DNA of 42,798 nt from a virus: IMG/VR virus record IMGVR_UViG_3300045988_177667, positions 1 to 42,798 of that record; one strand, 5' to 3'. The stretch's first letter is position 1. Every line of letters starts with the position of its first letter. The notes under the pieces are model-generated. The model had not been told where the DNA came from. It did no database searches and saw nothing but the letters and a program-made list of their open reading frames with translations. Of the stretch, positions 8,458 through 42,499 are shown one piece after another. A program made the position numbers and the translations under genes.

Positions 8458-11400
8458 ATGGCCGGATATGATCTCGGGACCGCATGGATTCAGATCAGCC
8501 CGTCCGTGCGAGGCCTCGCTCGGAGTATCAATAGCGAAATCAGTAACGTCGATACTGGGCCGGCCGAGAGAAAGATCACATCCGGGCTTGGTGGTGCGTT
8601 CAAATCGGTAGCGAAAGTCGCCGGCGCCGCGCTCGGAGGACTCGCAATCGGCGGAATCGCAGTTGCGTTCGGCGGTGTCGCAAAAGAGGCATTCAATGCT
8701 GCCGACGCCACAATCAAATTCAAGCAAACGCTCGCGTTCGCCGGTAAAAGTGCGGACGAAATCAACGCGCTCACAAAAAGCACACGCTCCTACGCGGACC
8801 GCACGATTTACGAGCTCGACGATATCCAGTCCATTACCGCGCAGCTTGCATCCAACGGCGTAAAGGGCTACGATAAGCTCGCCGAGGCTGCCGGTAACCT
8901 GAACGCTGTTGCTGGTGGAAATGCGCAGACGTTCAAAACGGTCGGTCTCGTTATGACGCAGACTGCGGGCGCCGGAAAACTTACCACCGAGAACTGGAAT
9001 CAGCTTTCCGACGCCATTCCTGGCGCGTCCGGTAAATTGCAGGAAGCCATGAAAAAGAATGGCGCCTACACTGGCAATTTCCGGGAAGCCATGGAAAAAG
9101 GCGAGATCACCGCCGAGGAATTCAACCAAGCAATCCTCGATCTCGGTATGGAGGACGTGGCCATTGAGGCCGCTACATCCACCAAAACCCTGGAAGGCGC
9201 TTGGGGGAATTTCAAAGCGACCCTTGTGACTGGGGCGCAGGAAATCGCCGAAAAAGCACTACCGTGGATCACCGCATCCCTTGACGCCATGAGCAAAGGG
9301 TTCGAAAAAGTATTCAACTGGGTGAGCAATTCATTCATCCCCAGTATTACGAATGCTTTCAACGTTATCCGCAAGGGTGATTTTACGGGCCCGATCTTCT
9401 CGTTCGAAGAAGACTCTAGTTTCGTTGATTTCCTTTTCCGCATGCGTGACGCTGCCGCCGCTGCCGGGGAATGGATCAACAAGACGCTCGTCCCGTCGTT
9501 GAAGAATCTTAAAGATTTGCTTCTGTCCGGTGATTTCACAGGGACGATTTTTGGATTCGACAAAGATTCCGGAATCATTTCCTACATCACCAATGTTCGT
9601 AACAGTTTTGTCGAGCTAGGTAAATTCATTGTCGGGACGCTCGTCCCTGGTATCGCCACGGCGCTCAGCACCATCGCGAACAGCAGCCTCGTCCAATTCA
9701 TGGAGAATCTCACCGTCGCTATTCTCAATAGTAAAGTGGCGGTTTATAGTATTGCGGCTGCGTTTACGGCATGGAAAGCTGTCATGGTCATGTCCTCAAT
9801 GCAGCAATGGTTGAATGACATGGAGGGCGTAGCCGGGGTTGCGGGGCGTGTCACCACGGCCATTAATGCGATGACCGTGGCGAAAGTCAAAGACGTGGTG
9901 GAGACCGCGCAGCTCAACCTCATGTACGCCGGCGAATTCCTGTCAAATATCGCGCGCGCAACGACGCAGATCACGATGCAGGCGGTTGCTTGGGGTAGGG
10001 CCACGGCAATGATGGTCCTCCACAAAACTGCAACAATCGCCTCGACCGCGGCACAGTGGGCATTCAACGCAGCAATGGACGCCAACCCAATCGGCCTCGT
10101 CGTGATCGCTATCGCAGCATTGGTCGCGGCAATCATTGTGGCATGGCAGAACTCCGAAACATTCCGCAACGTCGTCATTTCCTGTTGGGAAGCAATCAAA
10201 ACAGCCGCCGGGGCCGTGGCCGATTGGTTCGCCGCTAACGTATGGCCTCTCATGCAAGTCGCATGGGATGGAATCGTCGCCGGCGCCCAATGGATGTGGG
10301 GCGTCATGGTATCCGTCTGGCAAGGAATGCAGCCCGTTATTCAGGCGGTCATTGATTGGATCGTCGGCACCGCATGGCCCGCGCTCCAGGCGGCATGGGA
10401 CGGAATCGTCGCCGGCGCCCAATGGGTATGGAACGGCATCGTCAACGTCTGGCAGGGAATACAGCCCGTCATTCAAGCTGTCGTCGATTGGATTGTAAAT
10501 ACCGCCTGGCCCAACCTTCAAGCCGCCTGGGACGGTATTTCCGCGGGCGCAATGATCGTTTGGAACGGAATGGTCGCCGCGTGGCAAGGGATCAGCGACA
10601 TAATCCGACCCGTCGTCGACTGGATCGTCAACGTCGCCGCCTTGTATCTCACCACGGCATGGGATGCCATTAGTTGGGGTGTGAGTGCGCTCTGGTCTAC
10701 GATTCAGTGGGCGTGGGACGCTATTTGGGCGGCAATCATGCCCGTCGCCACACAAATCTACAATGATATTTGGCCCATGGTGGTGGGCGCTTTTAACGCG
10801 ATTAAAGACACCGCCTCCATGATGTGGGCCGATATTCAGATCGCGTGGACTGCTATTCAGACCGCAATTCAGCCCGTTGCGGATTGGATTTACAATACGG
10901 TTTGGCCGTGGGTTGTAGGCGCCTTTAATGCGATTAAGGATACGGCCACTAACATGTGGGGCGATATTCAGTCCGCGTGGGCTGCGATTCAGGCTGCTAT
11001 GCAGCCGGTAGTTGAATGGATCTACTATACAGCGTGGCCTTGGGTCGTAGATACTTTCAACACTATCAAGGACGCGGCGTCCAATCTTTGGGGTACGGTT
11101 CAGGCTGCGTGGACCTCTATTCAGGCGGCTATGCAGCCCGTGGTCGAGTGGATTTACTATACGGCCTGGCCCTGGGTCGTCGACACATTCAACACAATTA
11201 AAGATACCGCCTCCGCACTTTGGGGCACCATATCAGCAGCATGGAACGGCATTTGGGCCACCATTCAGCCCGTCGTTGATTGGATCTACAATATTGCATG
11301 GCCATGGGTGGTCGGCGCGTTCAATGCTATTAAAGACACGGCGTCTATTATGTGGGGCTCCCTATCGGCGACGTGGAACGGCATTTGGGCCGTTATGCAG

Positions 11401-13020
11401 CCGGTGGTGAATTGGATTCAAACCTATGCTGCACCTGTTATTAGTGTGGCCTGGGAAATAATCTCTACGGGTGCGAAAATTCTGGGCGGAATCATTGCGT
11501 TCGTATTCGCGTCCATCATCGCTGCGGTCACCATGGGGGTCGCCGTAATTCAAGGCGCAGCCACCACGATCAGCGCAGCCTGGAACACCGTTGTTTCGTG
11601 GACCAGCTGGCTGAAAAACATGGTCGTCTCCGCATGGAACATCCTGAAAGGCGAAATCCAAATCGTTAAAGATTGGATCGCCAACACGCTCGTCCCCGCA
11701 ATCACGAGCGCCTGGGACAGGGTCGTAGCCGCCGCTAACACCATGAAAGACGGCGTTAGGACGGCGTGGGACAAAATCAAGGAAGCCGCAGCTAAGCCCG
11801 TTAACTTCGTTATCGGCACAGTCTACAACAATGGGCTGCGGAAACTCGTTAACGGTATGATGGAGAAACTTTCTCTCGATCTTCGTCTTCCCGAGGCTCC
11901 CACGATTGGCGGGTACGCGTCCGGTGGTGTCCTGCCCGGATACTCCCCGGGCCGTGACATTTACCATTTCGTATCACCCGATGGCGGTGGCCGGCTCGCC
12001 CTTTCCGGCGGAGAAGCAATCATGCGGCCCGAATGGGTGAAAGCTGTCGGCGGCCCTGCAATGGTTAATGCAATGAATCGTGCCGCCGCGCACGGGGACA
12101 GGATTCCCGGCGGCGATGCCGGCTATGCCGCATTCGCCCCGGGCGGTATTTGGGACCCTGTCAAATCAACGGTAGAAAAGGGCGCGTCTGCTGCCCTTAA
12201 TTGGATCACCGGCGCGGCCGACGCGGTATCCTCGATATTCTCCGACCCAATCGGAGCCGTCGAGACTGTCATCAAGGCTCCGGTTCACAAGCTTCTCGAT
12301 TCGTGGGGCGGCGACGGGGCGAAACCATTCTTTGACGCAGGCAAAGCGGGCGTAGATAAAACCATTGACGCGCTCGGCGATTGGATCAAAGATCACATGC
12401 CTGTGGTCAGTGGATTCGGTGGCGGAATCGGTGCAATCGGTGCGGCCGCCGGCGACCTCGTGAATACGGCGCGACGGGCTATAGGTACACCGTATGTTTG
12501 GGGCGGCGTCTCCCCGGGCGGTGGGCTCGATTGTTCTGGTCTCGTTTATTGGGCGCTCAACGCAATGGGCGTTCATGTGCCGCGTCTCACGGCGGCCGGA
12601 TATCAGGCAATGTCATCGCCCGGTAACCCTATGGTTCCCGGTACGCTTCTGTTCTGGGGTTACCCAGCTCACCACGTTGCTATCGCCTCCGGTAACGGCA
12701 TGATGGTTGAGGCGCCGACTTTTGGTATTCCGGTGCGTGAGGTTCCGATCTATGGTGGGCCGTCCGCGGGTAATCTCCGCTACGATAATGGCGGTTTCCT
12801 GCAGCCCGGCCTCTCAACGATCGAAAATAAAACTGGTCGTCCTGAGCCTGTTTTTACGTCGGCCCAGTGGGAGAAAATGGATAAATTGATCAGCCTCCTG
12901 GAGAATCGTGCGCTCGGCCCTGACGTGCTCGAAATTCGGGACGTTGACAATGATCTTGTGGGGCGTATGCAGGTAGAGGCAACGTCGGCCATAGTAGACT
13001 ATGACCGAATGAACCGATGA
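8458..13020 (+). CDS. Tape measure protein with a Trp-rich 44-aa tandem repeats and a C-terminal NlpC/P60-like peptidase domain
   Basis: A 1520-aa ORF after the chaperones with GGAGAGG as its Shine-Dalgarno. It has hydrophobic and repeat-rich segments. The motif GTPYVWGGVSPGGGLDCSGLVYWAL...HHVAIASG is NlpC/P60-like. Confidence 0.9.
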   Translation: MAGYDLGTAWIQISPSVRGLARSINSEISNVDTGPAERKITSGLGGAFKSVAKVAGAALGGLAIGGIAVAFGGVAKEAFNAADATIKFKQTLAFAGKSADEINALTKSTRSYADRTIYELDDIQSITAQLASNGVKGYDKLAEAAGNLNAVAGGNAQTFKTVGLVMTQTAGAGKLTTENWNQLSDAIPGASGKLQEAMKKNGAYTGNFREAMEKGEITAEEFNQAILDLGMEDVAIEAATSTKTLEGAWGNFKATLVTGAQEIAEKALPWITASLDAMSKGFEKVFNWVSNSFIPSITNAFNVIRKGDFTGPIFSFEEDSSFVDFLFRMRDAAAAAGEWINKTLVPSLKNLKDLLLSGDFTGTIFGFDKDSGIISYITNVRNSFVELGKFIVGTLVPGIATALSTIANSSLVQFMENLTVAILNSKVAVYSIAAAFTAWKAVMVMSSMQQWLNDMEGVAGVAGRVTTAINAMTVAKVKDVVETAQLNLMYAGEFLSNIARATTQITMQAVAWGRATAMMVLHKTATIASTAAQWAFNAAMDANPIGLVVIAIAALVAAIIVAWQNSETFRNVVISCWEAIKTAAGAVADWFAANVWPLMQVAWDGIVAGAQWMWGVMVSVWQGMQPVIQAVIDWIVGTAWPALQAAWDGIVAGAQWVWNGIVNVWQGIQPVIQAVVDWIVNTAWPNLQAAWDGISAGAMIVWNGMVAAWQGISDIIRPVVDWIVNVAALYLTTAWDAISWGVSALWSTIQWAWDAIWAAIMPVATQIYNDIWPMVVGAFNAIKDTASMMWADIQIAWTAIQTAIQPVADWIYNTVWPWVVGAFNAIKDTATNMWGDIQSAWAAIQAAMQPVVEWIYYTAWPWVVDTFNTIKDAASNLWGTVQAAWTSIQAAMQPVVEWIYYTAWPWVVDTFNTIKDTASALWGTISAAWNGIWATIQPVVDWIYNIAWPWVVGAFNAIKDTASIMWGSLSATWNGIWAVMQPVVNWIQTYAAPVISVAWEIISTGAKILGGIIAFVFASIIAAVTMGVAVIQGAATTISAAWNTVVSWTSWLKNMVVSAWNILKGEIQIVKDWIANTLVPAITSAWDRVVAAANTMKDGVRTAWDKIKEAAAKPVNFVIGTVYNNGLRKLVNGMMEKLSLDLRLPEAPTIGGYASGGVLPGYSPGRDIYHFVSPDGGGRLALSGGEAIMRPEWVKAVGGPAMVNAMNRAAAHGDRIPGGDAGYAAFAPGGIWDPVKSTVEKGASAALNWITGAADAVSSIFSDPIGAVETVIKAPVHKLLDSWGGDGAKPFFDAGKAGVDKTIDALGDWIKDHMPVVSGFGGGIGAIGAAAGDLVNTARRAIGTPYVWGGVSPGGGLDCSGLVYWALNAMGVHVPRLTAAGYQAMSSPGNPMVPGTLLFWGYPAHHVAIASGNGMMVEAPTFGIPVREVPIYGGPSAGNLRYDNGGFLQPGLSTIENKTGRPEPVFTSAQWEKMDKLISLLENRALGPDVLEIRDVDNDLVGRMQVEATSAIVDYDRMNR
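10261..11450 (+). repeat. About nine in-frame tandem repeats of 132 bp (44 aa) inside the tape measure gene
   Basis: Units begin at 10261, 10393 and 10525 (AWDGIxAGAxxxW...QPVIQAVxDWIVxTAWP). Further units begin at 10711, 10843, 10975, 11107, 11239 and 11371 (AWxxIQxAxQPVxxWIYxTxWPWVVxxFNxIKDTAS). Confidence 0.85.
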
Positions 13021-16857: not shown

Positions 16858-17559
16858 ATGCCTAATACTAGGTGGACCGGCGGCATCGTCCCCACGGTAG
16901 ATGATAATCTCATTGAGGCCTGGGATGCGTATGATGATTCCGCCGGCAGAGTTATGCCAGCGGCGTCCGTAGCCGCGGCACGGGTCATGCTTGCGGCCGC
17001 ACCATCCGGGGCGGTATCGAAAGCGCGCCCCGCAGTTTTCATTATTGACGACATTCTGTACACCGCTGACGGCTCCAAGGCTGGCGACGGGTCATTCAAC
17101 ATTAACCCAGCGAATTCGTTCAGCGGTGTACTTTACCGGCACCGTGATAATACGAACGGCCGTGGACGCCCTACCTCGGATCATGCTACTTACACGTGGG
17201 GTGACGGTATTGTTACCCTACCTATTAAGAGTCTCATGGAGTTCTCGCTTGACGTGTGCGTGAGCATTGCGCATGAGGATTATCATTCCGAGGAGGAGAA
17301 GGATAAGGCTGTCGGCTCGTATTTCTTCGGATTCAAGCTCGACAATAGGGGTATTTGGCAGACCGAGATTCAATACAATCGCACGTTTATGACGCACCAT
17401 ATGCAATGGCGCCTTTCCGTGGAAGCCGGCTCACACAGGGTCGCTTACACTACGGCGGGCAGCTATGGTGCCGACCCGTACTGGCATTACGATGGCGGCG
17501 TTTTCCCGGGCACGGTGTTTACGGTGGCTACCCTTGGCGCGACCCGCGTTGACCTGTAA
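16858..17559 (+). CDS. Tail-tip/fibre-associated protein, function unknown
   Basis: A 233-aa ORF with an AGGAGA Shine-Dalgarno 7 nt upstream. Confidence 0.45.
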   Translation: MPNTRWTGGIVPTVDDNLIEAWDAYDDSAGRVMPAASVAAARVMLAAAPSGAVSKARPAVFIIDDILYTADGSKAGDGSFNINPANSFSGVLYRHRDNTNGRGRPTSDHATYTWGDGIVTLPIKSLMEFSLDVCVSIAHEDYHSEEEKDKAVGSYFFGFKLDNRGIWQTEIQYNRTFMTHHMQWRLSVEAGSHRVAYTTAGSYGADPYWHYDGGVFPGTVFTVATLGATRVDL

Positions 17560-17600
17560 TCAACAAATATAGTTCACTATTGGAGATAGGTGATAATAAT

Positions 17601-17993
17601 ATGACTAAAGTCATAGCTACGGTTGTGAATGCGGCCGGCAAGACAGTCAACGCAACAATGAGCGTCCGCCCTGAAACCGTTTACACGTCCGACAATATTA
17701 CGACAGTCCCCGCACCCGTGCGCGGCGACGCCGACGACAAAGGCAGGATCGAGGTGGAAGTAGACGCCAGCCACGGCGGACGATGGGCAATCGTTCTGAA
17801 CGTCGCCGGCGTGTGGGCACGTGAAGTCCGAGGTGCAGAGCTGCCCGCGTCCGGCGACGTGCAGGTGACATCCCTGTCAGCATGGAACGGCGGCACTACC
17901 CCCGATCCTGGCAATCCTGGCGGAGGCGGCCAGAACAACGGTGGCAAGATCACCGTCAGCGACGATGGTCTTACCTGGACCTACGGAGAGTGA
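17601..17993 (+). CDS. Small tail-associated protein with a Gly-rich C-terminal part
   Basis: ATG at 17601 preceded by GGAGATAGG. The product is 130 aa. The ORF-track start at 17580 is less likely. Confidence 0.4.
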   Translation: MTKVIATVVNAAGKTVNATMSVRPETVYTSDNITTVPAPVRGDADDKGRIEVEVDASHGGRWAIVLNVAGVWAREVRGAELPASGDVQVTSLSAWNGGTTPDPGNPGGGGQNNGGKITVSDDGLTWTYGE

Positions 17994-18002: not shown

Positions 18003-18998
18003 ATGGCAAACGTTACTGGGTACACTAAGGCCGGCGTAGATAAGCTGGTCGCCCCGCTGTTCTCTTCAATCTCGCCTTTCGCGGTCGGCGGACACTACTA
18101 CTCCCCCGTCACGTATTTCTGGCCCGATTTCTACAATGAGGGTCAGGCCGGGAAGATTTCGAAGTGGGCCAAGACGCTGGCCTATGGGAATGCGCTCGGC
18201 TATGTGATCATGAATCGTTCCACGGGCGATTGGTCCGCCAAAGACAACGACTTTCTTACGCAGGCGCAGCGTGCCCAGGCGGCCGGGGCAAAGAGGGTTC
18301 TCTGGTATATTCCTACCCGTTATGGTGTCGCGTCGCTCGCTAAGGAGGACGCCGCTAGGAATGGTGTGCCGGACCCGGATAAGTTTACGCGCGAATACAT
18401 TATGCAGCTGTGCGCCAACCTGCGCTCCCAGTACGATGGTCTTTTCCAGGGTGTATTCTTGGACGAGGTAATCAACGGATGGGGCGTCCAGGCGGGACGC
18501 GTTGGTTGGTACGGTGATCTCATCGGCGAAATTCGACACACCTACGGCAAGGATTTCACAATCGCTATCAACCCTGGTAGCAATATTACTGAGGCAGTGT
18601 GCTCGCTCGATTTCGATGTGTGCATGAGCTTTGAGAATACTGCCGCCAAGTATTTGACGGACGACCCTAATAACCCGATTGCGAATGATGTGATGCGGGC
18701 GCAGCCTTCCACCAAGTGGTGGCACGTTATTCATGGGGTTACGAAAGAGAATTTCCGGCAGGTAATCGATCGCGCCGCATCGTTCGGTGTGTCACATTTG
18801 TATGTGACCGACGGCGAGCTGGTGCAGGGCGAGGGCGGCCAGTGGGTTCCTGAGAAGAATCCTTACCAGAATCCTCCGTCGGATTGGATCATGGAGCGCG
18901 TGGTTGCTTGGCATGGCGGCTACCTCGACCTGGCTGAGCGTGTTGCCGCGTTGGAGGCGAAAGCGGCTCCGGCTCCGTCTCCTCAGCCGGGCGCCTGA
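18003..18998 (+). CDS. Spherulation-specific family 4-like protein, a putative glycoside-hydrolase-like polysaccharide depolymerase
   Basis: A 331-aa ORF, the last gene of the tail block. The pattern GYVIMNRSTGDW...RVLWYIPTRYG...GVFLDEV resembles spherulin-4/GH114-like TIM-barrel families as I recall them. Confidence 0.4.
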   Translation: MANVTGYTKAGVDKLVAPLFSSISPFAVGGHYYSPVTYFWPDFYNEGQAGKISKWAKTLAYGNALGYVIMNRSTGDWSAKDNDFLTQAQRAQAAGAKRVLWYIPTRYGVASLAKEDAARNGVPDPDKFTREYIMQLCANLRSQYDGLFQGVFLDEVINGWGVQAGRVGWYGDLIGEIRHTYGKDFTIAINPGSNITEAVCSLDFDVCMSFENTAAKYLTDDPNNPIANDVMRAQPSTKWWHVIHGVTKENFRQVIDRAASFGVSHLYVTDGELVQGEGGQWVPEKNPYQNPPSDWIMERVVAWHGGYLDLAERVAALEAKAAPAPSPQPGA

Positions 18999-18999: not shown

Positions 19000-19015
19000 T
19001 GTTTCACGTGAAACA
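19000..19015. promoter_or_regulatory. parS: parS-type 16-bp palindrome TGTTTCACGTGAAACA (chromosomal ParB/Spo0J site consensus), copy 1
   Basis: Exact palindrome starting 2 nt after the stop of the last tail gene. Its right half forms the base of the adjacent terminator stem. Confidence 0.8.
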
Positions 19016-19054
19016 TTCCCCCTCACCACAGAAATCGTGGTGAGGGGGAATGTT
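19012..19054. terminator. Terminator hairpin between convergent operons (18-bp stem aacattccccctcaccac/gtggtgagggggaatgtt)
   Basis: Perfect 18-bp inverted repeat with a 7-nt loop. TTTT follows on the + strand. It lies in the 76-bp gap between 18998 (+) and 19075 (-). Confidence 0.7.
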
Positions 19055-19074
19055 TTCGTACCCGACGGAAGAGA

Positions 19075-19542
19075 CTATAGTCCCAGGCGTTGATAGTCTC
19101 CTCCGTGCTCGCGAGCAATATCGTCCAAGACGCCCATGAGGTCGGAGCGTGCATCGTCCTGAACGGTGATAGACGGCGAGTTCAGGATCGAATGAATCGT
19201 ACTGTTGATTTCCCGAAATCGGCGGCCAGCGATTGCGTCACACTCTACACTGTCCCAACGCCGTGCTAGACGGCGCGCAAGATCAGACGTATTCTCTCCG
19301 CTTGTTTCATGGTATACACCTACAACGTTCAATGGCCAACCCCAGACAACCCATTTGCTGAAAGTGCCGCCGTCGTCATTTTCTACGGTGACATCAATCC
19401 CAACGCCCTTATGCTGGTTGTGCCACTTCAGAAGAGCGACCATGTGCGCTTCGTCAATATCACACACGTCGGGCTTCGGAAGCCATAACTGTACAAGGCT
19501 GATCTCTCGCTCGATCTCCAGCATTAGATTATTTGCTGTCAT
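19075..19542 (-). CDS. Hypothetical protein
   Basis: A 155-aa ORF, the last gene of the leftward module. It overlaps the upstream gene by 4 nt. Confidence 0.55.
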   Translation of the reverse strand: MTANNLMLEIEREISLVQLWLPKPDVCDIDEAHMVALLKWHNQHKGVGIDVTVENDDGGTFSKWVVWGWPLNVVGVYHETSGENTSDLARRLARRWDSVECDAIAGRRFREINSTIHSILNSPSITVQDDARSDLMGVLDDIAREHGGDYQRLGL

Positions 19543-19793
19543 GAAACGCTCCGCAGAAGTAGGCTACAACGCATCGCAGAATGCTCCGGGCTGCAGGATT
19601 CCTCGTGAGTCCATCCTGCTGAGACTCCGCGCTTCGTCGTCACCGCAACACCGTTATCGGTGATCTCGATATTCCCTGACGGGGAGTCAATGACGGTAAC
19701 TCCCGTGCGGTCCGAAATGCGGGGCGACGTAATCGTGTTCTGCAATTCCTTAGCAATAGTCAGCGCAATTTCCCGGCGATCAATCTTGTTCAT
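19539..19793 (-). CDS. Hypothetical protein
   Basis: An 84-aa ORF, translationally coupled to its neighbours. Confidence 0.5.
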   Translation of the reverse strand: MNKIDRREIALTIAKELQNTITSPRISDRTGVTVIDSPSGNIEITDNGVAVTTKRGVSAGWTHEESCSPEHSAMRCSLLLRSVS

Positions 19794-20311
19794 TATTTCA
19801 TCTCCATAGCCGATGGCGTGACGCCGGTCTGCCCCTGATAGTGTGATCCGAGACCATTGGTGCCGTATGGCATGCTGGCCGGCCTGTCCAGATCCTCGAA
19901 AGCGATCTGCGCAATCCTATCCCCCGGGAAAAGACGAGCAGCCTTACTGGAGTGTAGATTGGCGATTTCCAGAGTCACGTTTCCCTGGAATCCCGGATCA
20001 ATGTATCCCGCAGACACGTGCACGAGAATTCCTCGGCGCGCCCACGACGACTTACCTTCCACCCTAGCTACTAGGTCGGCTGGCACGCTGACTTTCTCCT
20101 GGGTGGACGCGAGAATAAACTCACCCGGCAACAGCTCATAACCATTCTCGCCGATGGTGACATTCTCGTCGTCGTGACGGTAGGTGATAATGTTCTCGTC
20201 TAGCCGCACTTCTACCGACGCCGGTTGAATAGACAACGGTTTACGCCAGTCGGAGATGAGTTCACCCCAATCGATTCTGCGTCGGAGAGTGAAATCACTC
20301 AGTGTAGCCAT
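19793..20311 (-). CDS. dcd: dCTP deaminase / dUTPase-superfamily enzyme
   Basis: The 172-aa product has VEGKSSWARRGILVHVSAGYIDPGFQGNVTLEIANL. This closely parallels the E. coli Dcd core ([33 protein letters not shown]). Confidence 0.8.
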   Translation of the reverse strand: MATLSDFTLRRRIDWGELISDWRKPLSIQPASVEVRLDENIITYRHDDENVTIGENGYELLPGEFILASTQEKVSVPADLVARVEGKSSWARRGILVHVSAGYIDPGFQGNVTLEIANLHSSKAARLFPGDRIAQIAFEDLDRPASMPYGTNGLGSHYQGQTGVTPSAMEMK

Positions 20312-20765
20312 TCTGGCGACTCCCGTCTTCGTTTTCCTTGATCATATGGACCGTGTAACCTTTATTGCGTAGGATTGCTTCGGCTTCGAGGGCAAGTGCA
20401 GGCTTCTCTCCCGGGATAATTTCTACCATGTCTTTACCGCGTTCCGACAGTACGATCGCGCAGACGTACGCATCGTCGTCCGACGAGTCGCTGTAAGTGA
20501 GCACATACCCGCCTATCTCATCCGAATATGTGCACCTAGTAAAAGTGACCCTTCCTTCCCGCCATGAACGCAAGGTAAGTGTTACTCCCTGAACAAATTG
20601 CACGGTGTGCATAAGCCCACGGATCGCGGCAGGCGGATCGATAGCATAACTCCTGATAGTGAAGTTACAGTCGGTGGCATGCATAAACGCAGCCGCGCCC
20701 CACAGTTCACCACATTTCGCCAAATCAACGAAAACAATGTTGACAATATTTTCCATAACGCTCAT
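20295..20765 (-). CDS. Hypothetical protein
   Basis: A 156-aa ORF that overlaps both neighbours. Confidence 0.5.
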   Translation of the reverse strand: MSVMENIVNIVFVDLAKCGELWGAAAFMHATDCNFTIRSYAIDPPAAIRGLMHTVQFVQGVTLTLRSWREGRVTFTRCTYSDEIGGYVLTYSDSSDDDAYVCAIVLSERGKDMVEIIPGEKPALALEAEAILRNKGYTVHMIKENEDGSRQNGYTE

Positions 20766-21769
20766 CTCTCTTCTGGAATGTAGTTACTGAGGTGATCGTG
20801 TGAAATGGCGGACATGAACTCTGTGAGCCTGTCTCGAACCTCCCTGGCACGCCCCTGTGGGGTGAGCTGTCTATCAATAGTGTCCCAGTAGACGTTTCGC
20901 AGAATTGCAATCACCGACTGGCTTCCATGGTCGTTGACGAGTTCACGAAGATACCACGCCGCCTTTCCCATATCAACATTCTCGTCAGCATCATTCTTGT
21001 GACCCGCCCTGAAAATATACTTCAAAGCACTGCCTGTCAGATAGTCTTTGTCGCGAATGAAAGTGATGGGCTCAGGATCGAGGGCCACATAATGCGATGG
21101 GTGAGACACGGCATTCTCGTGCACATCATCCTTGACATACTCATCATTCTTCATCACGATATGGAGAACATTATCGTTGGTGGTCAACTCATAGAGCTGC
21201 TCGTCGAACGTGAGAAACGCTCCCCCACCATTCTCATCCTCATACCAAATGCACCATTCGCCAGTGAAATACCGACAAACCTTCCTGACAAGCGCGTCAT
21301 AATCGTCGGAGACATGAAAACGAATCGGTTCGCCCACAAACTTCAACTCACAGCCGGGATCAGACTTATATCTGCCAATACGCCACCAATACCAGCCATC
21401 ATGCTTCTGTTCCAGAGAAACGTAGCGGCGGCTCCAACACTCTACCCGCCGTTCACTGAAAGAATTGCGGCGGACGTGCACCTCCCAAAACCCATCATGC
21501 GGCACTACCTTCGAAACATACTCATACACGCCATTCGGATAGTAAATCTTCTCGCACCCATCATCTACGAGTGACACCACATAATCTCCTCTTTCTGTCT
21601 GTGTGATCGAATACTCGTCGTATCTGAAATAGTGTATCCGTTCTACACCGTCATGAATAGAATTGAAACCAATCCCCTTGCTGTTGTCGGTTTGTGCTAT
21701 GATTCTCTCTTTATTGCCGTCTGGCAAGTACAGCCAAACCGGTTTCAAAAACACCTTGTCCACAATCAT
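20762..21769 (-). CDS. Protein with a DUF3310-like C-terminal domain
   Basis: The 335-aa product has a C-terminal HPSHYVALDPEPITFIRDKDYLTGSALKYIFRAGHK...MGKAAWYLRELV. This matches the DUF3310 pattern as I recall it. Confidence 0.55.
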   Translation of the reverse strand: MIVDKVFLKPVWLYLPDGNKERIIAQTDNSKGIGFNSIHDGVERIHYFRYDEYSITQTERGDYVVSLVDDGCEKIYYPNGVYEYVSKVVPHDGFWEVHVRRNSFSERRVECWSRRYVSLEQKHDGWYWWRIGRYKSDPGCELKFVGEPIRFHVSDDYDALVRKVCRYFTGEWCIWYEDENGGGAFLTFDEQLYELTTNDNVLHIVMKNDEYVKDDVHENAVSHPSHYVALDPEPITFIRDKDYLTGSALKYIFRAGHKNDADENVDMGKAAWYLRELVNDHGSQSVIAILRNVYWDTIDRQLTPQGRAREVRDRLTEFMSAISHDHLSNYIPEER

Positions 21770-21779
21770 TCACGCTATT

Positions 21780-22133
21780 TCAGTTGCCGAGAGTGCCGAC
21801 CGTAGCGAAGTAAGCGAAGAATACTTGGAGCCACCAAAATGCGCGCCACGCCAATGACAGTCCAATAACACCTACAATGAGAGCTACCGCACCCATTGCC
21901 ATACCTTCGCCTGTGGACCGCGGCTTGCGGAGCCATGCCATGAAACGATTAGTGGGGCGCGGGGGCGCCATCACGCTGAGCGGCACAGACCATGCGGGCG
22001 GCGCCGGGGCAGGCCGAGGCTGCGGAGGTGGCGGAGGCGGTGGAGGGGTAGGTGCACTAGCCGCGGGCGGAGGCGGCGCGGGAGTCGGCGCCGACGGGGC
22101 ACTCGAAAAAGTAGGCATAATAGTTTTCCTCAC
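21780..22133 (-). CDS. Pro-rich protein with a hydrophobic C-terminal membrane segment
   Basis: The 117-aa product has a PTPAPPPPAASAPTPPPPPPPPQPRPAPAPP tract followed by MAMGAVALIVGVIGLSLAW and FFAYFATVGTL. The start is uncertain. Confidence 0.45.
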   Translation of the reverse strand: MRKTIMPTFSSAPSAPTPAPPPPAASAPTPPPPPPPPQPRPAPAPPAWSVPLSVMAPPRPTNRFMAWLRKPRSTGEGMAMGAVALIVGVIGLSLAWRAFWWLQVFFAYFATVGTLGN

Positions 22134-22318
22134 TTTCCGTTCAGTTCTGCCATGAGACGGTTGGTCCAGCCGTCACTGTAATTGAAATTCGTACGCTTAG
22201 TGTGGCGTGTGCTCTTGATTCTCTTCGCTCGATTCCTCTTGTGTTCTTGAAACTCGATTGTCTTGCGACGAACCTCATCCCCGCGTCCGTCCATACGGCG
22301 AATTGCTGGGTATTTCAT
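22130..22318 (-). CDS. Small basic protein
   Basis: ATG at 22318 overlaps the upstream stop (ATGA). The product is 62 aa and Arg/Lys-rich. Confidence 0.45.
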   Translation of the reverse strand: MKYPAIRRMDGRGDEVRRKTIEFQEHKRNRAKRIKSTRHTKRTNFNYSDGWTNRLMAELNGK

Positions 22319-22710
22319 GATTTGATCCACTCGATTCCGTCGCCGAGAAGCCCGCGCAAATCATTGATCAAGTTGCGCGCGTTCCCGAACTCCTCTTCGC
22401 TGATATCAAAGATTCGGTAGACGTTTCCTTCGGTGCAGACCACAAGGAAGGAATCGTGGGCGTGTTCTGGGATGAAAACATTGCGGACGTTTCCGATGAG
22501 GGCGGGCCGCTGAACCGGGATGGCCTGTACGAGGTCGGCCCCGGTGAGAATTGCGACAGCGGTCACTCGCTCAACGGGGATTCCCCGGAATTCGTTCTCG
22601 CCTTTCTCGTATCCTTTTGCGGGGAAGTGAATTTTAGTGCCCTTCAGGTTAGTGAATACAGCACCTCCTGTAGTTTTGCATGATCCGTATCCTGTGCGAC
22701 GGCGTGCCAT
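22315..22710 (-). CDS. Hypothetical protein
   Basis: A 131-aa ORF with a GAGAAGAGGA Shine-Dalgarno upstream of its ATG. Confidence 0.55.
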   Translation of the reverse strand: MARRRTGYGSCKTTGGAVFTNLKGTKIHFPAKGYEKGENEFRGIPVERVTAVAILTGADLVQAIPVQRPALIGNVRNVFIPEHAHDSFLVVCTEGNVYRIFDISEEEFGNARNLINDLRGLLGDGIEWIKS

Positions 22711-25867: not shown

Positions 25868-26101
25868 ATGTTTACTCCTGAGGTCCGCAAGGCGCTTTAC
25901 GCCCTGCTCACTGCTGTTCTCGGCGTTTTTGCGGCGTTCAATGTTATTTCCGCTGACCAGGCGTCTCAGTACGCTGACGCTGCGACCCAGATTGTCGGTG
26001 CTCTGACTCTGGCTCTGGCCACGTATCACACTCGCCCCGGCGCGGCCGCTGGCCGTCACGCCGCCGGTGAGGGTGAGGCTACTGAGGACAAGGTCGCCTG
26101 A
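25868..26101 (+). CDS. Holin (putative)
   Basis: The 77-aa product has two hydrophobic helices (ALYALLTAVLGVFAAFNVI and IVGALTLALATY) and a charged C-terminal tail. It is the last gene of the lysis cassette. Confidence 0.55.
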   Translation: MFTPEVRKALYALLTAVLGVFAAFNVISADQASQYADAATQIVGALTLALATYHTRPGAAAGRHAAGEGEATEDKVA

Positions 26102-26116
26102 CCTCCGTCATTCATA

Positions 26117-26166
26117 GAAACATTACTGCCCCCTACCGAACAAGTGGTAGGGGGCAGTAATGTTTC
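26117..26166. terminator. Terminator hairpin between convergent operons (21-bp stem gaaacattactgccccctacc/ggtagggggcagtaatgtttc)
   Basis: Perfect inverted repeat with an 8-nt loop. The right arm contains the left half of parS copy 2, and the left arm begins with a GAAACA half-site. Confidence 0.7.
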
Positions 26167-26176
26167 ACGTGAAACA
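26161..26176. promoter_or_regulatory. parS: parS-type palindrome TGTTTCACGTGAAACA, copy 2
   Basis: Exact 16-mer that overlaps the terminator stem. Confidence 0.8.
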
Positions 26177-26183
26177 CGGGGCA

Positions 26184-26199
26184 TGTTTCACGTGAAACA
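26184..26199. promoter_or_regulatory. parS: parS-type palindrome TGTTTCACGTGAAACA, copy 3 (an 18-bp palindrome at 26183..26200)
   Basis: Exact 16-mer 23 bp centre-to-centre from copy 2. It ends 1-2 nt before the stop codon of the RuvC-like gene. Confidence 0.8.
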
Positions 26200-26200
26200 T

Positions 26201-26686
26201 TCACCGTCGCTCCACGTCGTCTCCGACGATGCGTGCGATCACACCCTTGTCGTGACGTTTAGTGACTGCCCACAGGAAAAGATGACGCCCCGCATCGCGC
26301 GCGTCGTCCGCATCGGGCTGACCTACACTGGCTCCTGTGGGCCAAAAACCAAGTAGCTTCAAAACATGGTCGGGCATGGTTGTTTTCGCCATTGCGGGAG
26401 TCTGCCAGACGATATCTCCGATCTCCCATTCCAGTACAGCGTTGATTTTTACTGGGGTGAGGTCTGCAAGAAAATTGTTGCCCGGTCGAAGATCAAACCG
26501 TTCACACACGACAATGTCTGGGGCGAATTCGTTTCGTGTGGCCAGAATGTCATAGACGCTGGCAGTCCAATGCTCATACTTGAACTGTTGAACATGAATG
26601 ATCGAGAGTTCGCGGTCGTCGTGAAAGTCTCCGACGACGATTCCTGTTGATTTGCCGGGATCAACGGCCATCACCCGCTGCATCAT
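26201..26686 (-). CDS. RuvC-like Holliday junction resolvase
   Basis: The 161-aa product has an N-terminal VMAVDPGKSTGIVVG and later acidic residues (VVCERFD, DADDARDA) typical of RuvC-fold resolvases. Confidence 0.65.
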   Translation of the reverse strand: MMQRVMAVDPGKSTGIVVGDFHDDRELSIIHVQQFKYEHWTASVYDILATRNEFAPDIVVCERFDLRPGNNFLADLTPVKINAVLEWEIGDIVWQTPAMAKTTMPDHVLKLLGFWPTGASVGQPDADDARDAGRHLFLWAVTKRHDKGVIARIVGDDVERR

Positions 26687-39765: not shown

Positions 39766-39910
39766 AGGGAATATGTGTTGTAACGTAATTAGTGTTCAAT
39801 GGTGAACATGGTGATCGTTAACAGTGAACAGTGTGTGGTGAGGACAACAATGCTGCTGTAGTGGTACACAACATACACACCTATTAAGTACACAAACCCA
39901 GAAACAATAA

Positions 39911-39970
39911 GGCGCGTGTTGTGTTACGTGCGTGCTCGCAGAGCTGCGCGCGCACTACACAACACACGCC
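39911..39970. repeat. Structured hairpin element, copy A (conserved 35-nt core, 14-bp outer stem)
   Basis: The sequence is ggcgcgtgttgtgt-tacgtgcgtgctcgcagagctgcgcgcgcact-acacaacacacgcc. The core matches copy B at 33 of 35 positions. Confidence 0.6.
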
Positions 39971-40047
39971 AACCCACAAACAAAGAGAAGAAGAAAAGCG
40001 AGGAGAGGAGGAAGAAGAAGGAAGAGGAGGAAGCAACAGAGAGAGTA

Positions 40048-40105
40048 GTGTTAGACGGTGGAGGCGCTCGTCTCGCTGACGCTGCGACGCGCCACCACCT
40101 AACAC
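40048..40105. repeat. Third imperfect GTGTT...AACAC hairpin
   Basis: gtgttag/ctaacac, ggtgg/ccacc and ggcgc/gcgcc are paired segments separated by bulges. Confidence 0.4.
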
Positions 40106-40139
40106 GACACAAAAAGAAGAGCAAAGAAGAAGAAACACG

Positions 40140-40484
40140 GTGAGCAGAACAAGCACAAAAGAACACAAACAATTCAGAAAACAAGTACTCGCCAGAGCAC
40201 AACAAATGGGCATCACACACTGCCCAGCATGCGGAACCAAACTCCAATACAACAACAACGGACAACGCAAACCCAACAGTGCCGAAGCCGACCACATAAT
40301 CCCAGCCTCGTTAGGCGGAACCAACCACCCAGACAACGGGCGAGTCCTCTGCGCCAAATGCAACAGCAGACGCGGCAACGGACGAGGAGGAAAAGGAAGA
40401 GCACGCCACTACCAGAAAAACGAAAACGAACGAGACAGACTACCCGTAGCCGTCATGCCCACCGAACACACCAACACATGGTGA
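40140..40484 (+). CDS. HNH endonuclease (terminase-associated type, judged by position)
   Basis: The 114-aa product reads HCPACGTKL...EADHIIPASLGGTNHPDNGRVLCAKCNSRRGN, the classic HNH with Cys pairs. It has a GTG start. It is located upstream of terS/terL, as in HK97-like cos phages. Confidence 0.8.
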   Translation: MSRTSTKEHKQFRKQVLARAQQMGITHCPACGTKLQYNNNGQRKPNSAEADHIIPASLGGTNHPDNGRVLCAKCNSRRGNGRGGKGRARHYQKNENERDRLPVAVMPTEHTNTW

Positions 40485-40580
40485 ATCACCCACCGCCATT
40501 CCAGCAGCAGAAGAAAGACGGGACACAGAGAAAGCGAGGAGAAGAAGAGACAGAGAAGAAGAAACAAAGGAAGACGCAAT

Positions 40581-40637
40581 GGTGTTCGGGGATAACGTGC
40601 GTGCTCGCAGGGCTGCGCGCGCACTACCCCGAACACC
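40581..40637. repeat. Structured hairpin element, copy B
   Basis: The sequence is ggtgttcgggg-ataacgtgcgtgctcgcagggctgcgcgcgcacta-ccccgaacacc. The perfect 11-bp outer stem differs in sequence from copy A but keeps complementarity. Confidence 0.6.
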
Positions 40638-41532
40638 AACACACAAAGGAAGAAGAAGAGGAAGAAGAAGAGAATACGGGAACAGTGAACTAAGACAAGA
40701 CACCACACACCCACCACCACCACCATTCCACAATACGCAACACAATGCGACACGACATGCACCACTACCACCGCACACGTTACAACATGACTGATGTGCA
40801 GACAGTAAACACCGCACGCCCTTCCACCCAACACAAACCATCACCGCCATCCCACAATGACACACCCCCTGACACAAAGACACCACCCTAAACCAACAAT
40901 GCTGTGACAGCAAACACACAGATGGGGAGAAGGGAAGAGGAAAGAGAAGAATGAGACACAGTCTCACCACAATGCCGCCCCCGCACCACCGCACTTCCTC
41001 CACCCCGCAACACAAGAGGAACAAGACAACACAAGAGAGACGGGAACAACATGAAGGGGATGACCCAACCCAACACAGGACACCACAGCACACACCACCC
41101 CCCGCCATTCAACGCGGCCACCACACAAACAGGAGAGGGACACCGATACAAATGGGAGGGGACACCAACATCAGACAGGGAGGTCAGTACTGCAACACCC
41201 GCCCTTCACTCACCATGCCACCCCCATCCACCATGCCACCCCACCATCCACACTGCCCCCACCCACCACCAATGCGAGGGGGGAGCAGACAGAGGATACC
41301 CCACCACAGACGAACACACACCCACACACACACACCGCACACCCGGCAAGACACAGCACACGACACGACCGCAGTACCGATGAGTACTGCACCGGGATAG
41401 GCGGGGCACGGGCCACACGCACTGACCGGGCAGGACAGCAGCAGCACACACCACCGCCATTCCACACACCACACACCAACGAGGATGGACACCATCCACT
41501 GTCTCACCTCACACTGTTCGCGTTCATACAAC

Positions 41533-41650
41533 CAACGAACGATCATGATCAACGACGATCAATGATCATCGTTCAATGATTGATCAACGAACAATGAACG
41601 ATGAACATGATGATGATCAATGATGATCAACAACGAACATGATCAACATG
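41533..41650. repeat. Iteron-like array rich in GATC (TGATCAAYRA and CAACGAAC words)
   Basis: Eight GATC sites lie at 41541, 41547, 41557, 41564, 41582, 41615, 41625 and 41641. (T/C)GATCAA occurs six times and CAACGAAC three times. Confidence 0.6.
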
Positions 41651-41766
41651 ATGATGAACACACGACGATGATGTGATGCATGACATGCATACCAATACCA
41701 TGCACCATGCATGGTGCCAACGCACGCCACAAGGCAATCGCATAACGCACAAACGCACAAACGCAT

Positions 41767-42171: not shown

Positions 42172-42201
42172 CTCTTGCCGGACGTGACCAGTATCACCAC
42201 A

Positions 42202-42207: not shown

Positions 42208-42214
42208 AGGAAAC

Positions 42215-42496: not shown

Positions 42497-42499
42497 AAA

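What the first reader, a model, noticed from the sequence alone, without database searches (positions are those of the whole stretch)
26161..26200. Tandem pair of perfect parS sites in the gap between the holin and RuvC-like genes
Two further exact TGTTTCACGTGAAACA copies lie at 26161 and 26184, 23 bp centre-to-centre. The second extends to an 18-bp palindrome. They fill the 99-bp gap between the convergent lysis and early operons. The last copy ends 1-2 nt before the RuvC-like stop codon. All three parS copies sit in the only two convergent, presumably transcriptionally quiet, junctions of the genome. There, ParB loading would not be swept off by RNA polymerase. The roughly 7.2 kb between the two loci holds the lysis cassette and the dCTP-deaminase module.
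Basis: partly seen in the sequence, partly recalled or inferred. Interest (0 to 1): 0.9.

Follow-up and report, generated by a model that had tools for sequence, protein, structure and literature searches.

The report
Host-type parS centromere sites on a phage
An uncultured human-oral phage with no partition genes of its own carries three perfect, strongly conserved copies of the bacterial chromosome "centromere" sequence parS, so it most likely borrows the host's ParB segregation protein, a trick documented so far only for Bacillus phage phi29.

Summary
Exact TGTTTCACGTGAAACA lies at 26161-26176 and 26184-26199, with a third copy at 19000-19015. Only 0.22 matches are expected by chance even when 3 mismatches are allowed.

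The window is a circularly assembled siphovirus genome of about 42.7 kb, 55% G+C, from human oral metagenomes, with actinophage-like genes. About 60 related IMG/VR genomes keep the sites at the same two junctions. The parS1 core never varies in 41 distinct sequences, whereas third codon positions have diversity (pi) of 0.18-0.26 and the spacer 0.48.

Binding itself is inferred, not shown.

Each locus is fused to a G+C-rich hairpin whose stem runs into a parS half-site, and the two modules are paralogous. The sites lie between the stop codon and the hairpin, so they are transcribed and are shielded only from the opposing operon.

The closest precedent is phi29, which has five parS sites bound by host Spo0J and used for spore entrapment. 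One phi29 site has the same stop-parS-terminator layout.

I rate this a new variant of a known kind, interest about 0.6. In passing, the same lineage gained an array of seven DnaA-box consensus sites 18 nt from the physical genome end.

The parts
26184..26199 (.). parS3: exact 16-bp chromosomal-type parS, 1 nt from the RuvC-like stop codon; 18-bp palindrome when 26183 and 26200 are included
   Evidence: Exact in 48 of 52 distinct family sequences, pi = 0.026. Sits at the fixed locus coordinate 10488 in relatives.
26177..26183 (.). Spacer between the tandem parS copies; hypervariable in sequence and length (6-10 nt) and found in flipped orientation in relatives
   Evidence: pi = 0.48 with 35 different spacer variants. 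CGGGGCA versus TGCCCCG in the alignment.
26161..26176 (.). parS2: exact 16-bp parS. Its first bases (TGTTTC) form the outer end of the adjacent hairpin stem. This copy is dispensable in some relatives.
   Evidence: Exact in 38 of 52 sequences and deleted together with the spacer in 4 (pi = 0.17). Its first base covaries with the opposite arm of the stem.
26117..26166 (.). J2 hairpin (putative bidirectional terminator): GAAACATTACTGCCCCCTACC / loop 26138-26145 / GGTAGGGGGCAGTAATGTTTC. The left arm keeps a parS half-site (GAAACA).
   Evidence: The RNA fold of 26095-26205 is -58.8 kcal/mol, z = -9.5. The stem is conserved with paired changes and the loop is hypervariable. The simple terminator scan does not call it because it has no T-run.
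19000..19015 (.). parS1: exact 16-bp parS starting 1 nt after the stop codon of tail gene 18003-18998
   Evidence: The 14-bp core is invariant in 41 distinct family sequences (pi = 0.000); only the first base varies (T to C in 3).
19010..19056 (.). J1 hairpin: GAAACATTCCCCCTCACCAC / loop 19030-19036 / GTGGTGAGGGGGAATGTTTT. The stem extends into the right half of parS1.
   Evidence: Fold -43.9 kcal/mol, z = -6.1. 795 of 817 cells are paired, 4 of 20 pairs show compensatory double changes plus paired C/G indels, and the loop occurs in both orientations.
19051..19066 (.). Decayed second parS on the far side of the J1 hairpin (TGTTTTCGTACCCGAC); a full parS in three relatives
   Evidence: pi = 0.25. 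L018, L022 and L007 have TGTTTCACGTGAAAC(A/G) here, 51 bp from parS1.
26201..26686 (-). RuvC-like resolvase gene, the last gene of the early/replication operon, which ends at the tandem parS
   Evidence: phrog_1981 (2.9e-24) and phrog_159 RuvC-like. 83-95% identical in 61 IMG/VR loci.
25868..26101 (+). Holin-like gene, the last gene of the lysis cassette, convergent with the RuvC-like gene
   Evidence: Phage_holin_9 at 1.7e-5, below the curated cut-off; also marked weak in the gene calls.
18003..18998 (+). Last gene of the structural operon (Spherulin4-like domain), which ends 1 nt before parS1
19075..19542 (-). Last gene of the minus-strand dCTP-deaminase block, convergent with the tail gene
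   Evidence: Third-codon-position pi is 0.23 against 0.11 overall, which supports coding.

Best explanation
The three 16-mers are cis-acting loading sites for the host cell's chromosomal ParB protein. The phage lineage acquired and maintains them although it has no partition genes of its own.

Proposed mechanism:
1. After injection the cos-ended genome circularises.
2. Host ParB dimers recognise parS, close as CTP-dependent clamps and slide outwards. They form a partition complex that can cover much or all of a 42.7-kb molecule.
3. The phage DNA then behaves like a host origin region. Host ParA moves and positions it, and possibly SMC is loaded onto it.
4. As a result, unintegrated phage genomes are positioned and passed to both daughter cells when lysis is delayed (carrier state or pseudolysogeny). 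This is the non-sporulating counterpart of phi29, which uses Spo0J-parS to ride into the forespore.

What is shown:
- Sequence identity to parS.
- Strong purifying selection on the 16-mers, in contrast with adjoining non-coding DNA.
- Gain restricted to this lineage.
- Absence of a phage ParB, ParA or integrase.

What is inferred:
- ParB binding, from the known specificity of chromosomal ParB.
- Spreading over the whole genome, from a 32-kb ParB zone around a single parS in Corynebacterium glutamicum.
- The biological pay-off (segregation and inheritance), by analogy with phi29.

Of the 0.6 confidence, about 0.8 applies to 'host ParB binds here' and about 0.4 to 'the purpose is partition or positioning of the phage episome'.
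For: Match to parS: three exact matches to TGTTTCACGTGAAACA against 0.22 expected at up to 3 mismatches.

Conservation in the family:
- 61 related IMG/VR loci keep the sites at the same positions.
- Every locus that reaches J1 has a site there with an intact 14-bp core.
- Diversity: parS1 core pi = 0.000 and parS3 pi = 0.026. Third codon positions give 0.18-0.26, the spacer 0.48, the hairpin loops 0.48-0.56 and the decayed copy 0.25.
- The hairpin stems tolerate compensatory changes but the parS palindrome shows none. This points to sequence-specific protein recognition rather than RNA or DNA pairing.

No phage-encoded reader:
- Pfam and PHROGs scans of the ORFs found no ParB.
- No GERR motif occurs in a real reading frame.
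- phmmer with a Pfam-validated Spo0J against all 642 six-frame segments gave a best E-value of 4.

Lineage-specific gain: relatives with 31-50% identical RuvC-like genes keep the convergent junction and its hairpin but have no parS within 10 kb.

Precedent and wider occurrence:
- phi29 has five parS sites bound by host Spo0J and used to segregate the phage genome into the prespore (PMC2731898). The scan finds five sites in phi29, one directly between the gene 16 stop and the bidirectional terminator.
- In the actinobacterium C. glutamicum all ten parS are this B. subtilis-like 16-mer. Nine of the ten are intergenic, and two pairs (parS5/6 and parS9/10) lie <100 bp apart. One site supports ParB over 32 kb and loads SMC (PMC7083940).
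- Orphan parS is widespread. At least 120 other viral contigs carry the 16-mer, and only 1 has a ParB-like ORF in the fetched stretch.
Against: - No binding, localisation or phenotype data exist, and the host is not identified. No relative was found in 185,579 species genomes, and all protein relatives are metagenomic. The host's ParB and its specificity are therefore assumed.
- There is no independent evidence for a carrier state: no repressor, no plasmid-type replication gene, and no isolate assembly that carries the phage.
- The sites are transcribed as 3' UTR, which is not an obviously favourable place for stable ParB loading.
- In the best-studied chromosomal systems a strictly lytic phage would gain nothing from partition.
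- parS2 is dispensable in several relatives.
Confidence: 0.6

Rival explanations
1. Host ParB binds, but the purpose is manipulation of the host or of phage DNA organisation, not inheritance. Hundreds of replicated parS copies could titrate ParB (and SMC) away from the host origin and derail chromosome segregation or division. Alternatively, ParB/SMC could compact and individualise replicating phage genomes before packaging.
For: It rests on the same sequence evidence as the main explanation. The phage looks lytic: no integrase or repressor was found. A single parS recruits ParB over 32 kb and loads SMC in an actinobacterium (PMC7083940). Three sites per genome, multiplied by genome copy number, would outnumber a host's few parS sites.
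Against: No sequence feature separates this from the partition model. In many bacteria loss of ParB is only mildly deleterious over the time scale of one infection, so the benefit to the phage is unclear. phi29, the only studied case, uses the sites for inheritance.
Confidence: 0.2
2. The ParB-parS complexes act in transcription at the convergent junctions. They would serve as protein roadblocks that reinforce the weak, U-tract-poor hairpin terminators, or as nucleation points whose spreading or bridging insulates or silences the 7.1-kb segment holding the lysis cassette.
For: All sites lie directly next to hairpins at the only two convergent junctions, and the hairpins lack T-runs. The two modules bracket the lysis and dCTP-deaminase blocks in inverted orientation. 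One phi29 site also abuts the bidirectional terminator TD1.
Against: There is no general link between parS and adjacent strong hairpins in 166 sites of 120 other viral loci (p = 0.84). The other phi29 sites lie inside genes. From general knowledge, chromosomal ParB spreading has little effect on transcription in most species studied. The GC-65% relatives L062-L064 manage with the hairpin alone.
Confidence: 0.12
3. The palindromes work without ParB. They could be RNA or DNA hairpins, since the tandem pair can fold into a 16-bp stem, acting as terminator or mRNA-stabilising elements. Or they could be operators for an unrecognised phage DNA-binding protein. In either case the identity to parS is coincidental.
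For: The minus-strand fold pairs parS3 with parS2. The sites are transcribed as 3' UTR. TGTTTC supplies the only U-rich stretch after each G+C stem. Many small early ORFs have no recognisable family.
Against: A 16/16 match to one particular 16-mer, three times, is not plausible as coincidence. parS1 is single and cannot form the long stem. The parS columns show zero compensatory variation while the true stems covary. Four relatives delete one copy, which destroys the long stem, yet keep the other exact. The same 16-mer recurs in unrelated phages.
Confidence: 0.06
4. The sites are neutral passengers: a fragment of host origin-proximal DNA picked up by chance and not yet lost.
For: The gain is lineage-specific and lies in non-coding DNA.
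Against: The core is invariant across 41-52 distinct genomes while adjoining non-coding columns and synonymous sites vary freely. Two paralogous loci are maintained, and a second copy at J1 is intact in three genomes.
Confidence: 0.02

Closest known systems
parS sites of Bacillus phage phi29 (and relatives such as Nf), bound by host Spo0J/ParB (Meijer et al. 2005 as cited in PMC2731898)
   Same: - A phage classified as lytic (here inferred from the absence of an integrase or repressor) with no parA or parB carries several copies of the host chromosomal parS sequence.
- In phi29 one site (17243-17258) lies 1 nt after the last late-gene stop codon and just before the bidirectional terminator at the convergent junction. 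That is the same layout as J1 and J2 here.
- Tandem pairs and junction sites also occur in metagenomic phi29-like contigs, for example L079.
   Different: - The phage is unrelated: a 42.7-kb cos siphovirus with actinophage-like portal, capsid and tape-measure genes, against a 19-kb protein-primed podovirus.
- The sites here are perfect 16/16 matches and all intergenic. phi29 has four sites with one mismatch (TGTTTCACGTGGAACA) and one weak site, and four of the five lie inside genes.
- The sites here are fused to hairpin stems as two paralogous modules.
- There is no enrichment of Spo0A boxes (11 against 7.7 expected).
- The presumed host is an oral actinobacterium, and no oral actinobacterium is known to form endospores (my own knowledge). 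The only demonstrated use, spore entrapment, would then not apply.
Chromosomal ParABS centromeres (parS near oriC; B. subtilis, C. glutamicum, Streptomyces, Mycobacterium)
   Same: The 16-bp sequence is identical. The sites are intergenic and closely spaced in a pair, as in C. glutamicum, where nine of ten sites are intergenic and two pairs lie <100 bp apart (PMC7083940).
   Different: The replicon has no cognate parAB operon. It is a virus, not a chromosome. The sites lie about 16-20 kb from the putative origin-like region, which is far in relative terms on a 42.7-kb genome.
Plasmid-prophage partition systems (P1 parABS, N15 sopAB, parABS of cluster A mycobacteriophages)
   Same: A phage genome that is thought to be segregated as an episome through a ParB-parS complex.
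   Different: Those phages encode their own ParA and ParB and use private parS sequences. This phage encodes neither and uses the host's own sequence.

Membership tests
Chromosomal-type parS (ParB/Spo0J binding site) | 16-bp palindrome matching the consensus tGTTNCACGTGAAACa | tested here: met
   Three exact 16/16 matches against 0.22 expected even at up to 3 mismatches.
Chromosomal-type parS (ParB/Spo0J binding site) | Specifically bound by ParB, nucleating CTP-dependent clamping and spreading | not testable with these tools
   This needs EMSA, ChIP-seq or imaging. It is inferred only from sequence identity and from strong purifying selection on the 16-mer.
Chromosomal-type parS (ParB/Spo0J binding site) | Cognate parA-parB genes on the same replicon | tested here: not met
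   No ParB_N, HTH_ParB or ParA hit in any ORF. phmmer with Spo0J against all six-frame segments gave a best E-value of 4. The sites are orphans and depend on a trans-acting host protein.
Chromosomal-type parS (ParB/Spo0J binding site) | Sequence constrained as a protein site rather than as a pairing element | tested here: met
   0 of 8 palindrome pairs show compensatory change and the core is invariant. The adjacent stems show compensatory changes and paired indels.
phi29-type host-parS hijack by a phage | Multiple host-type parS copies on a phage genome that lacks parAB | tested here: met
   phi29 was re-scanned for comparison and has 5 sites.
phi29-type host-parS hijack by a phage | Host ParB (Spo0J) required for segregating the phage genome into the spore or daughter cell | not testable with these tools
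   The host is unknown and uncultured.
phi29-type host-parS hijack by a phage | Coupled to a host developmental regulator's sites (Spo0A boxes) that suppress the lytic cycle | tested here: not met
   TGTCGAA occurs 11 times against 7.7 expected, and 18 of 100 shuffles reach 11. A different host-factor array, DnaA-box pairs, is present instead.
Plasmid-prophage ParABS (P1, N15, mycobacteriophage cluster A) | Phage-encoded ParA ATPase and ParB with a private centromere | tested here: not met
   No such genes were found.
Intrinsic (bidirectional) transcription terminator, for the adjoining hairpins | G+C-rich stem-loop followed by a U-tract on the transcribed strand | tested here: inconclusive
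   The stems are very stable and conserved with covariation. There is no T-run, only UGUUUC on both sides, and the consensus scan does not call them. From general knowledge, U-tract-poor terminators are common in Actinobacteria.

The most novel reading that the evidence does not exclude
This phage lineage has assembled a mimic of the host origin region from borrowed binding sites. It carries host-type centromeres (parS) and an array of paired DnaA boxes identical to a 22-mer conserved in bacterial chromosomes. With these it would be replicated, timed and segregated by the host's own DnaA and ParABS machinery as an unintegrated mini-chromosome. This would be a form of lysogeny-free persistence needing no integrase, repressor-integrase module or partition genes. 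More broadly, orphan host-type parS would be a widespread and unrecognised strategy of phages well beyond the phi29 group, given at least 94 non-phi29-like IMG/VR contigs in a truncated scan.
Probability: 0.25. Interest if true: 0.8.

Novelty: new variant of a known kind. Interest (0 to 1): 0.6.

Why it matters
Only one phage group, phi29 and its relatives, is documented to exploit the host's chromosomal ParB-parS system, and only for spore entrapment.

This report adds a second, unrelated and abundant oral phage family that has independently acquired perfect parS sites and holds them invariant. That shows hijacking of the host centromere is a recurrent viral strategy. Here the host very probably does not sporulate.

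It offers a natural system for several questions:
- What does ParB loading do for a virus: inheritance in a carrier state, sub-cellular positioning, SMC recruitment, or host takeover?
- How do ParB clamps cope with transcription? The sites sit in 3' UTRs next to terminators.
- Is 'lytic' a safe label for metagenomic phages that lack integrases?

It also gives a simple sequence marker, orphan parS, for finding such phages in viromes.

Tried and rejected
- Host identification failed.
  - There is no near DNA match in GenBank phages.
  - No relative of the RuvC-like protein occurs in 185,579 species genomes.
  - Homologues of the endolysin and tail protein are all metagenomic and unnamed. The one NCBI hit is an unnamed MAG contig.
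  - tblastn places the phage only broadly among actinophages. The portal is 55% identical to Actinomyces/Schaalia phage LC001, which has no parS. There are weak tail-protein hits to a Rothia and a Streptococcus phage.
- Phage-encoded ParB was rejected.
- An Rfam family in the junctions: none found. tRNAs: none.
- A general rule that 'parS sits next to a terminator hairpin' in phages was rejected. 166 sites in 120 other viral loci show no excess of stable flanking structure.
- Inversion of the 7.1-kb segment between the inverted paralogous modules was not seen in 50 relatives.
- Enrichment of Spo0A boxes, as in phi29, was not seen.
- Half-site enrichment outside the three sites was not seen. 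There are 4 extra 7-mers, against roughly 10 expected on my own estimate.
- The restriction-site idea (CACGTG) was rejected. The hexamer occurs 10 times, 7 of them outside parS.
- A BLAST survey of GenBank phages for the 16-mer is not feasible, because matches fall below reportable E-values.

Full report
OBSERVATION

The sequence is as described. Exact TGTTTCACGTGAAACA occurs at 26161-26176 and 26184-26199, 23 bp start to start, and at 19000-19015. No further match exists in the window even with three mismatches. Dinucleotide-preserving shuffles give 0.22 matches on average and never three.

The second copy of the pair is an 18-bp palindrome (26183-26200). The holin-like ORF ends at 26101, and the stop codon of the RuvC-like ORF occupies 26201-26203 on the minus strand. 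The gap is therefore 99 bp, and the last parS ends 1 nt before that stop codon.

WHAT THE WINDOW IS

The first and last 55 nt are identical, so the window is a circular assembly of a genome of about 42,743 bp. It has about 55% G+C.

Gene content:
- Portal (SPP1 type), major capsid protein and a 1,520-aa tape measure.
- An endolysin with an ELLD domain.
- A replication module with an AAA_24 ATPase, an exonuclease, an SNF2 helicase, a primase/DUF3987 helicase and a RuvC-like resolvase.
- A dCTP deaminase and a DUF3310/nucleotide-kinase-like protein.
- No integrase, repressor, ParA or ParB in any ORF scanned.

The strand blocks are:
- plus strand (structural genes) up to 18998;
- minus strand 19075-22710;
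- plus strand (lysis cassette) up to 26101;
- minus strand (early genes) from 26201 onward.

The three sites therefore occupy the only two convergent junctions, which I call J1 (18998/19075) and J2 (26101/26201).

There is no near DNA match in GenBank phages. The portal is closest to Actinomyces/Schaalia phage LC001 (55% amino-acid identity), followed by Arthrobacter, Brevibacterium, Bifidobacterium, Mycobacterium, Propionibacterium and Rothia phages. An identical RuvC-like protein is encoded on contigs from a human oral metagenome, PRJEB6997. I conclude that this is an uncultured siphovirus of an oral, most probably actinobacterial, host. I could not identify the host species.

CONSERVATION

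A scan of IMG/VR with the RuvC-like protein returned 61 close relatives (83-95% identical, genomes of 41-43 kb, many independent samples) and five distant ones.
- In the close family a parS sits 4 nt after the RuvC-like ORF in essentially every genome.
- A second copy lies 22-26 bp further on in most genomes.
- A third lies about 7.1-7.2 kb away in every locus long enough to reach it.

Column statistics on 41 (J1) and 52 (J2) distinct sequences:

| Region | Diversity (pi) |
|---|---|
| parS1 14-bp core | 0.000 |
| parS3 | 0.026 |
| parS2 (deleted with its spacer in four genomes) | 0.17 |
| Third codon positions of the four flanking genes | 0.18-0.26 |
| Spacer between the tandem copies | 0.48 |
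| Hairpin loops | 0.48-0.56 |
| Decayed copy beyond the J1 hairpin | 0.25 |

The hairpin stems keep pairing through compensatory substitutions and paired C/G insertions. The parS palindrome shows no compensatory change at all. The 16-mers are therefore constrained base by base, as a protein recognition site would be, and not merely as a pairing element.

The distant relatives fetched keep the convergent junction and a hairpin but have no parS within 10 kb: L062-L064 (49-50% identical RuvC-like, G+C 65%) and L065 (34%). The sites are thus a gain of this one lineage.

Each locus is a composite.
- At J2 the 21-bp stem GAAACATTACTGCCCCCTACC / GGTAGGGGGCAGTAATGTTTC ends in the first six bases of parS2, and its left arm keeps a GAAACA half-site.
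- At J1 the stem GAAACATTCCCCCTCACCAC / GTGGTGAGGGGGAATGTTTT begins in the right half of parS1 and ends in a decayed parS. That decayed copy is a complete parS in three relatives.

The folds are very stable: -58.8 and -43.9 kcal/mol, with z-scores of -9.5 and -6.1. J1 read on the plus strand and J2 read on the minus strand align beyond the 16-mer, scoring 20 against at most 13 in 500 shuffles. The two loci are therefore paralogous modules in inverted orientation. No relative shows inversion of the segment between them.

The loops and the inter-parS spacer occur in both orientations among relatives, for example CGGGGCA and TGCCCCG. This is the signature of template switching or recombination at palindromes.

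In both loci the intact parS lies between the stop codon and the hairpin. The sites are therefore transcribed as the 3' end of the late (J1) or early (J2) operon, and the hairpin can shield them only from the opposing operon.

WHO READS THE SITES

The phage has no ParB.
- Pfam found no ParB domain in any ORF.
- The ParB box motif GERR occurs only in non-coding frames.
- I searched with a B. subtilis Spo0J sequence written from memory. Pfam confirmed it as a full ParB_N/HTH_ParB/ParB_C protein. phmmer against all 642 six-frame segments found nothing better than E = 4.

The 16-mer is the chromosomal consensus. In the actinobacterium C. glutamicum all ten parS are this B. subtilis-like 16-mer and identical to each other. 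Nine of the ten are intergenic and two pairs lie <100 bp apart. A single site supports ParB over 32 kb and loads SMC (PMC7083940).

The most economical reading is that host ParB loads on the phage DNA. This is an inference; no tool here can test binding.

PRECEDENT

phi29 carries five parS sites bound by host Spo0J, and there is evidence that they serve to segregate the infecting genome into the prespore (PMC2731898).

I re-scanned the phi29 genome and found five sites: four are TGTTTCACGTGGAACA and one is weaker, against 0.14 expected. One site (17243-17258) lies 1 nt after the gene 16 stop codon and directly before the annotated bidirectional terminator (17262-17301). That is the same layout as here.

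A truncated scan of IMG/VR for the exact 16-mer returned 120 further contigs with G+C from 27% to 72%.
- 26 are phi29-like.
- Only one has a ParB-like ORF in the fetched stretch.
- About half of the sites are intergenic.

Orphan host-type parS is therefore recurrent in viral sequence, and the present family is an independent, non-phi29 instance. Across those loci there is no general association of parS with a neighbouring strong hairpin.

MECHANISM AND RIVALS

Best explanation: host ParB clamps load at J1 and J2 and assemble a partition complex on the circularised phage genome. The genome is then positioned and segregated by host ParA, and possibly acted on by SMC. This favours inheritance of unintegrated genomes when lysis is delayed.

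Rivals:
- ParB or SMC titration, or organisation of phage DNA, as the purpose.
- A transcriptional roadblock or insulator role at the junctions.
- A ParB-independent hairpin or phage-protein operator. The exact triple match, the lack of covariation and the single-copy variants disfavour this.
- Neutral passenger DNA. The conservation contrast excludes this.

Confidences are given in the structured fields.

SIDE FINDING THAT BEARS ON THE INTERPRETATION

- Seven exact DnaA-box consensus 9-mers (TTWTCCACA, all on the minus strand) lie in 42045-42171. The whole window has eight, against 0.55 expected.
- They are arranged largely as pairs 12 nt apart.
- The array, with 5-9 boxes, is present in all family members fetched whose stretch reaches far enough upstream of TerL. 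It is absent from a sister family with 66% G+C.
- The 22-mer of one pair, TGTGGAWAACCCTGTGGAWAAC, occurs in at least 120 bacterial genomes of many phyla, against about 0.3 expected. In a Thermus genome it lies in the dnaA-dnaN spacer.
- The array begins 18 nt from the physical left end of the virion DNA, at 42027. At least eight independent contigs start at TGCCCATCC, and one has an Illumina adapter remnant fused to it.
- It lies just upstream of a small ORF and the large terminase gene. This is the position of a cosB-type terminase-binding region.

Whether DnaA, the small terminase or both bind there is open. Gain of a second host-origin-type motif in the same lineage that gained parS makes deliberate use of host chromosome-maintenance proteins more likely.

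VERDICT

The host-ParB interpretation is well founded but unproven.

The concept has a clear precedent in phi29. I therefore rate this a new variant of a known kind, because of the new phage lineage, a probably non-sporulating host, perfect and tandem sites fused to terminator hairpins, and association with a DnaA-box array. Interest is about 0.6.

Noticed in passing
window 42045-42171: Seven exact DnaA-box consensus 9-mers (3 TTATCCACA, 4 TTTTCCACA, all on the minus strand, mostly as pairs 12 nt apart) lie within 127 bp. The whole window has 8 against 0.55 expected. The array (5-9 boxes) is conserved in family members and absent from the 66%-G+C sister family. The 22-mer TGTGGAWAACCCTGTGGAWAAC occurs in at least 120 bacterial genomes of many phyla and lies in the dnaA-dnaN spacer in a Thermus genome. 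It could be a host-DnaA site (origin or regulation), a cosB-like terminase site, or both.
   Followed up: partly
window 42026/42027: Physical left end of the virion DNA. At least eight independent IMG/VR contigs start at exactly TGCCCATCCCTCCC. One of them (L240) has an Illumina adapter remnant fused to that base. The phage therefore has defined (cos-type) ends 188 nt upstream of the small ORF that precedes the large terminase gene.
   Followed up: partly
window 1-55 and 42744-42798: The first and last 55 nt are identical. This is an assembly overlap of a circular contig, so the true length is 42,743 bp. The large terminase gene starts at 42500 and continues across the window start to 1250.
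   Followed up: yes
window ~39900-42798 and 1-4000: The plus strand is extremely A/C-rich and T-poor across the genome ends (AT skew 0.5-0.7, GC skew down to -0.55). The stretch includes low-complexity CA-rich sequence and Thr/His/Asn/Pro/Gln-rich ORFs. The cause is unknown.
   Followed up: no
window 41530-41660 and 41760-41880: An array of GATCAATGATGATCA-like direct and inverted repeats is followed by an A-rich, 42%-G+C tract, in the non-coding right end of the genome. These are candidate origin, promoter or packaging elements.
   Followed up: no
L007, L018, L022 (locus ~17600-17670); L021, L023, L037, L046 (locus ~10488-10530): Copy-number polymorphism of the sites. Three relatives have a full second parS on the far side of the J1 hairpin. 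Four relatives lack one unit (parS plus spacer) of the J2 tandem. Hairpin loops and the inter-parS spacer occur in flipped orientation among relatives, which suggests template switching or recombination at the palindromes.
   Followed up: partly
26 are phi29-like podoviruses (e.g. L072, L079, L095, L113, L131, L136, L160, L172), some with tandem pairs. Only L179 has a ParB-like ORF in the stretch fetched. About half of the 166 sites are intergenic. The other 94 contigs were not characterised.
   Followed up: partly
L190 (phi29, NC_011048) 17243-17258: One of the five phi29 parS sites lies 1 nt after the gene 16 stop codon and immediately before the annotated bidirectional terminator TD1 (17262-17301), at the convergent junction. 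This is the same arrangement as in the window.
   Followed up: yes
window 8458-13020 and 18003-18998: The tape-measure protein carries a C-terminal NlpC/P60 peptidase domain. The last tail gene has a Spherulin4-like domain, with distant relatives in Rothia phage Spartoi and a Streptococcus thermophilus phage. Neither was studied further.
   Followed up: no
L253-L270 (IMG/VR): A sister family has a large-terminase N-terminus 53-61% identical, 66-72% G+C and mostly 36-43 kb contigs. One member examined (L254) has an HNH-endonuclease-like ORF end upstream of the terminase genes. Several of its contigs start about 360 nt upstream of TerL, and it has no DnaA-box array. Whether this family has parS elsewhere was not checked.
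   Followed up: no
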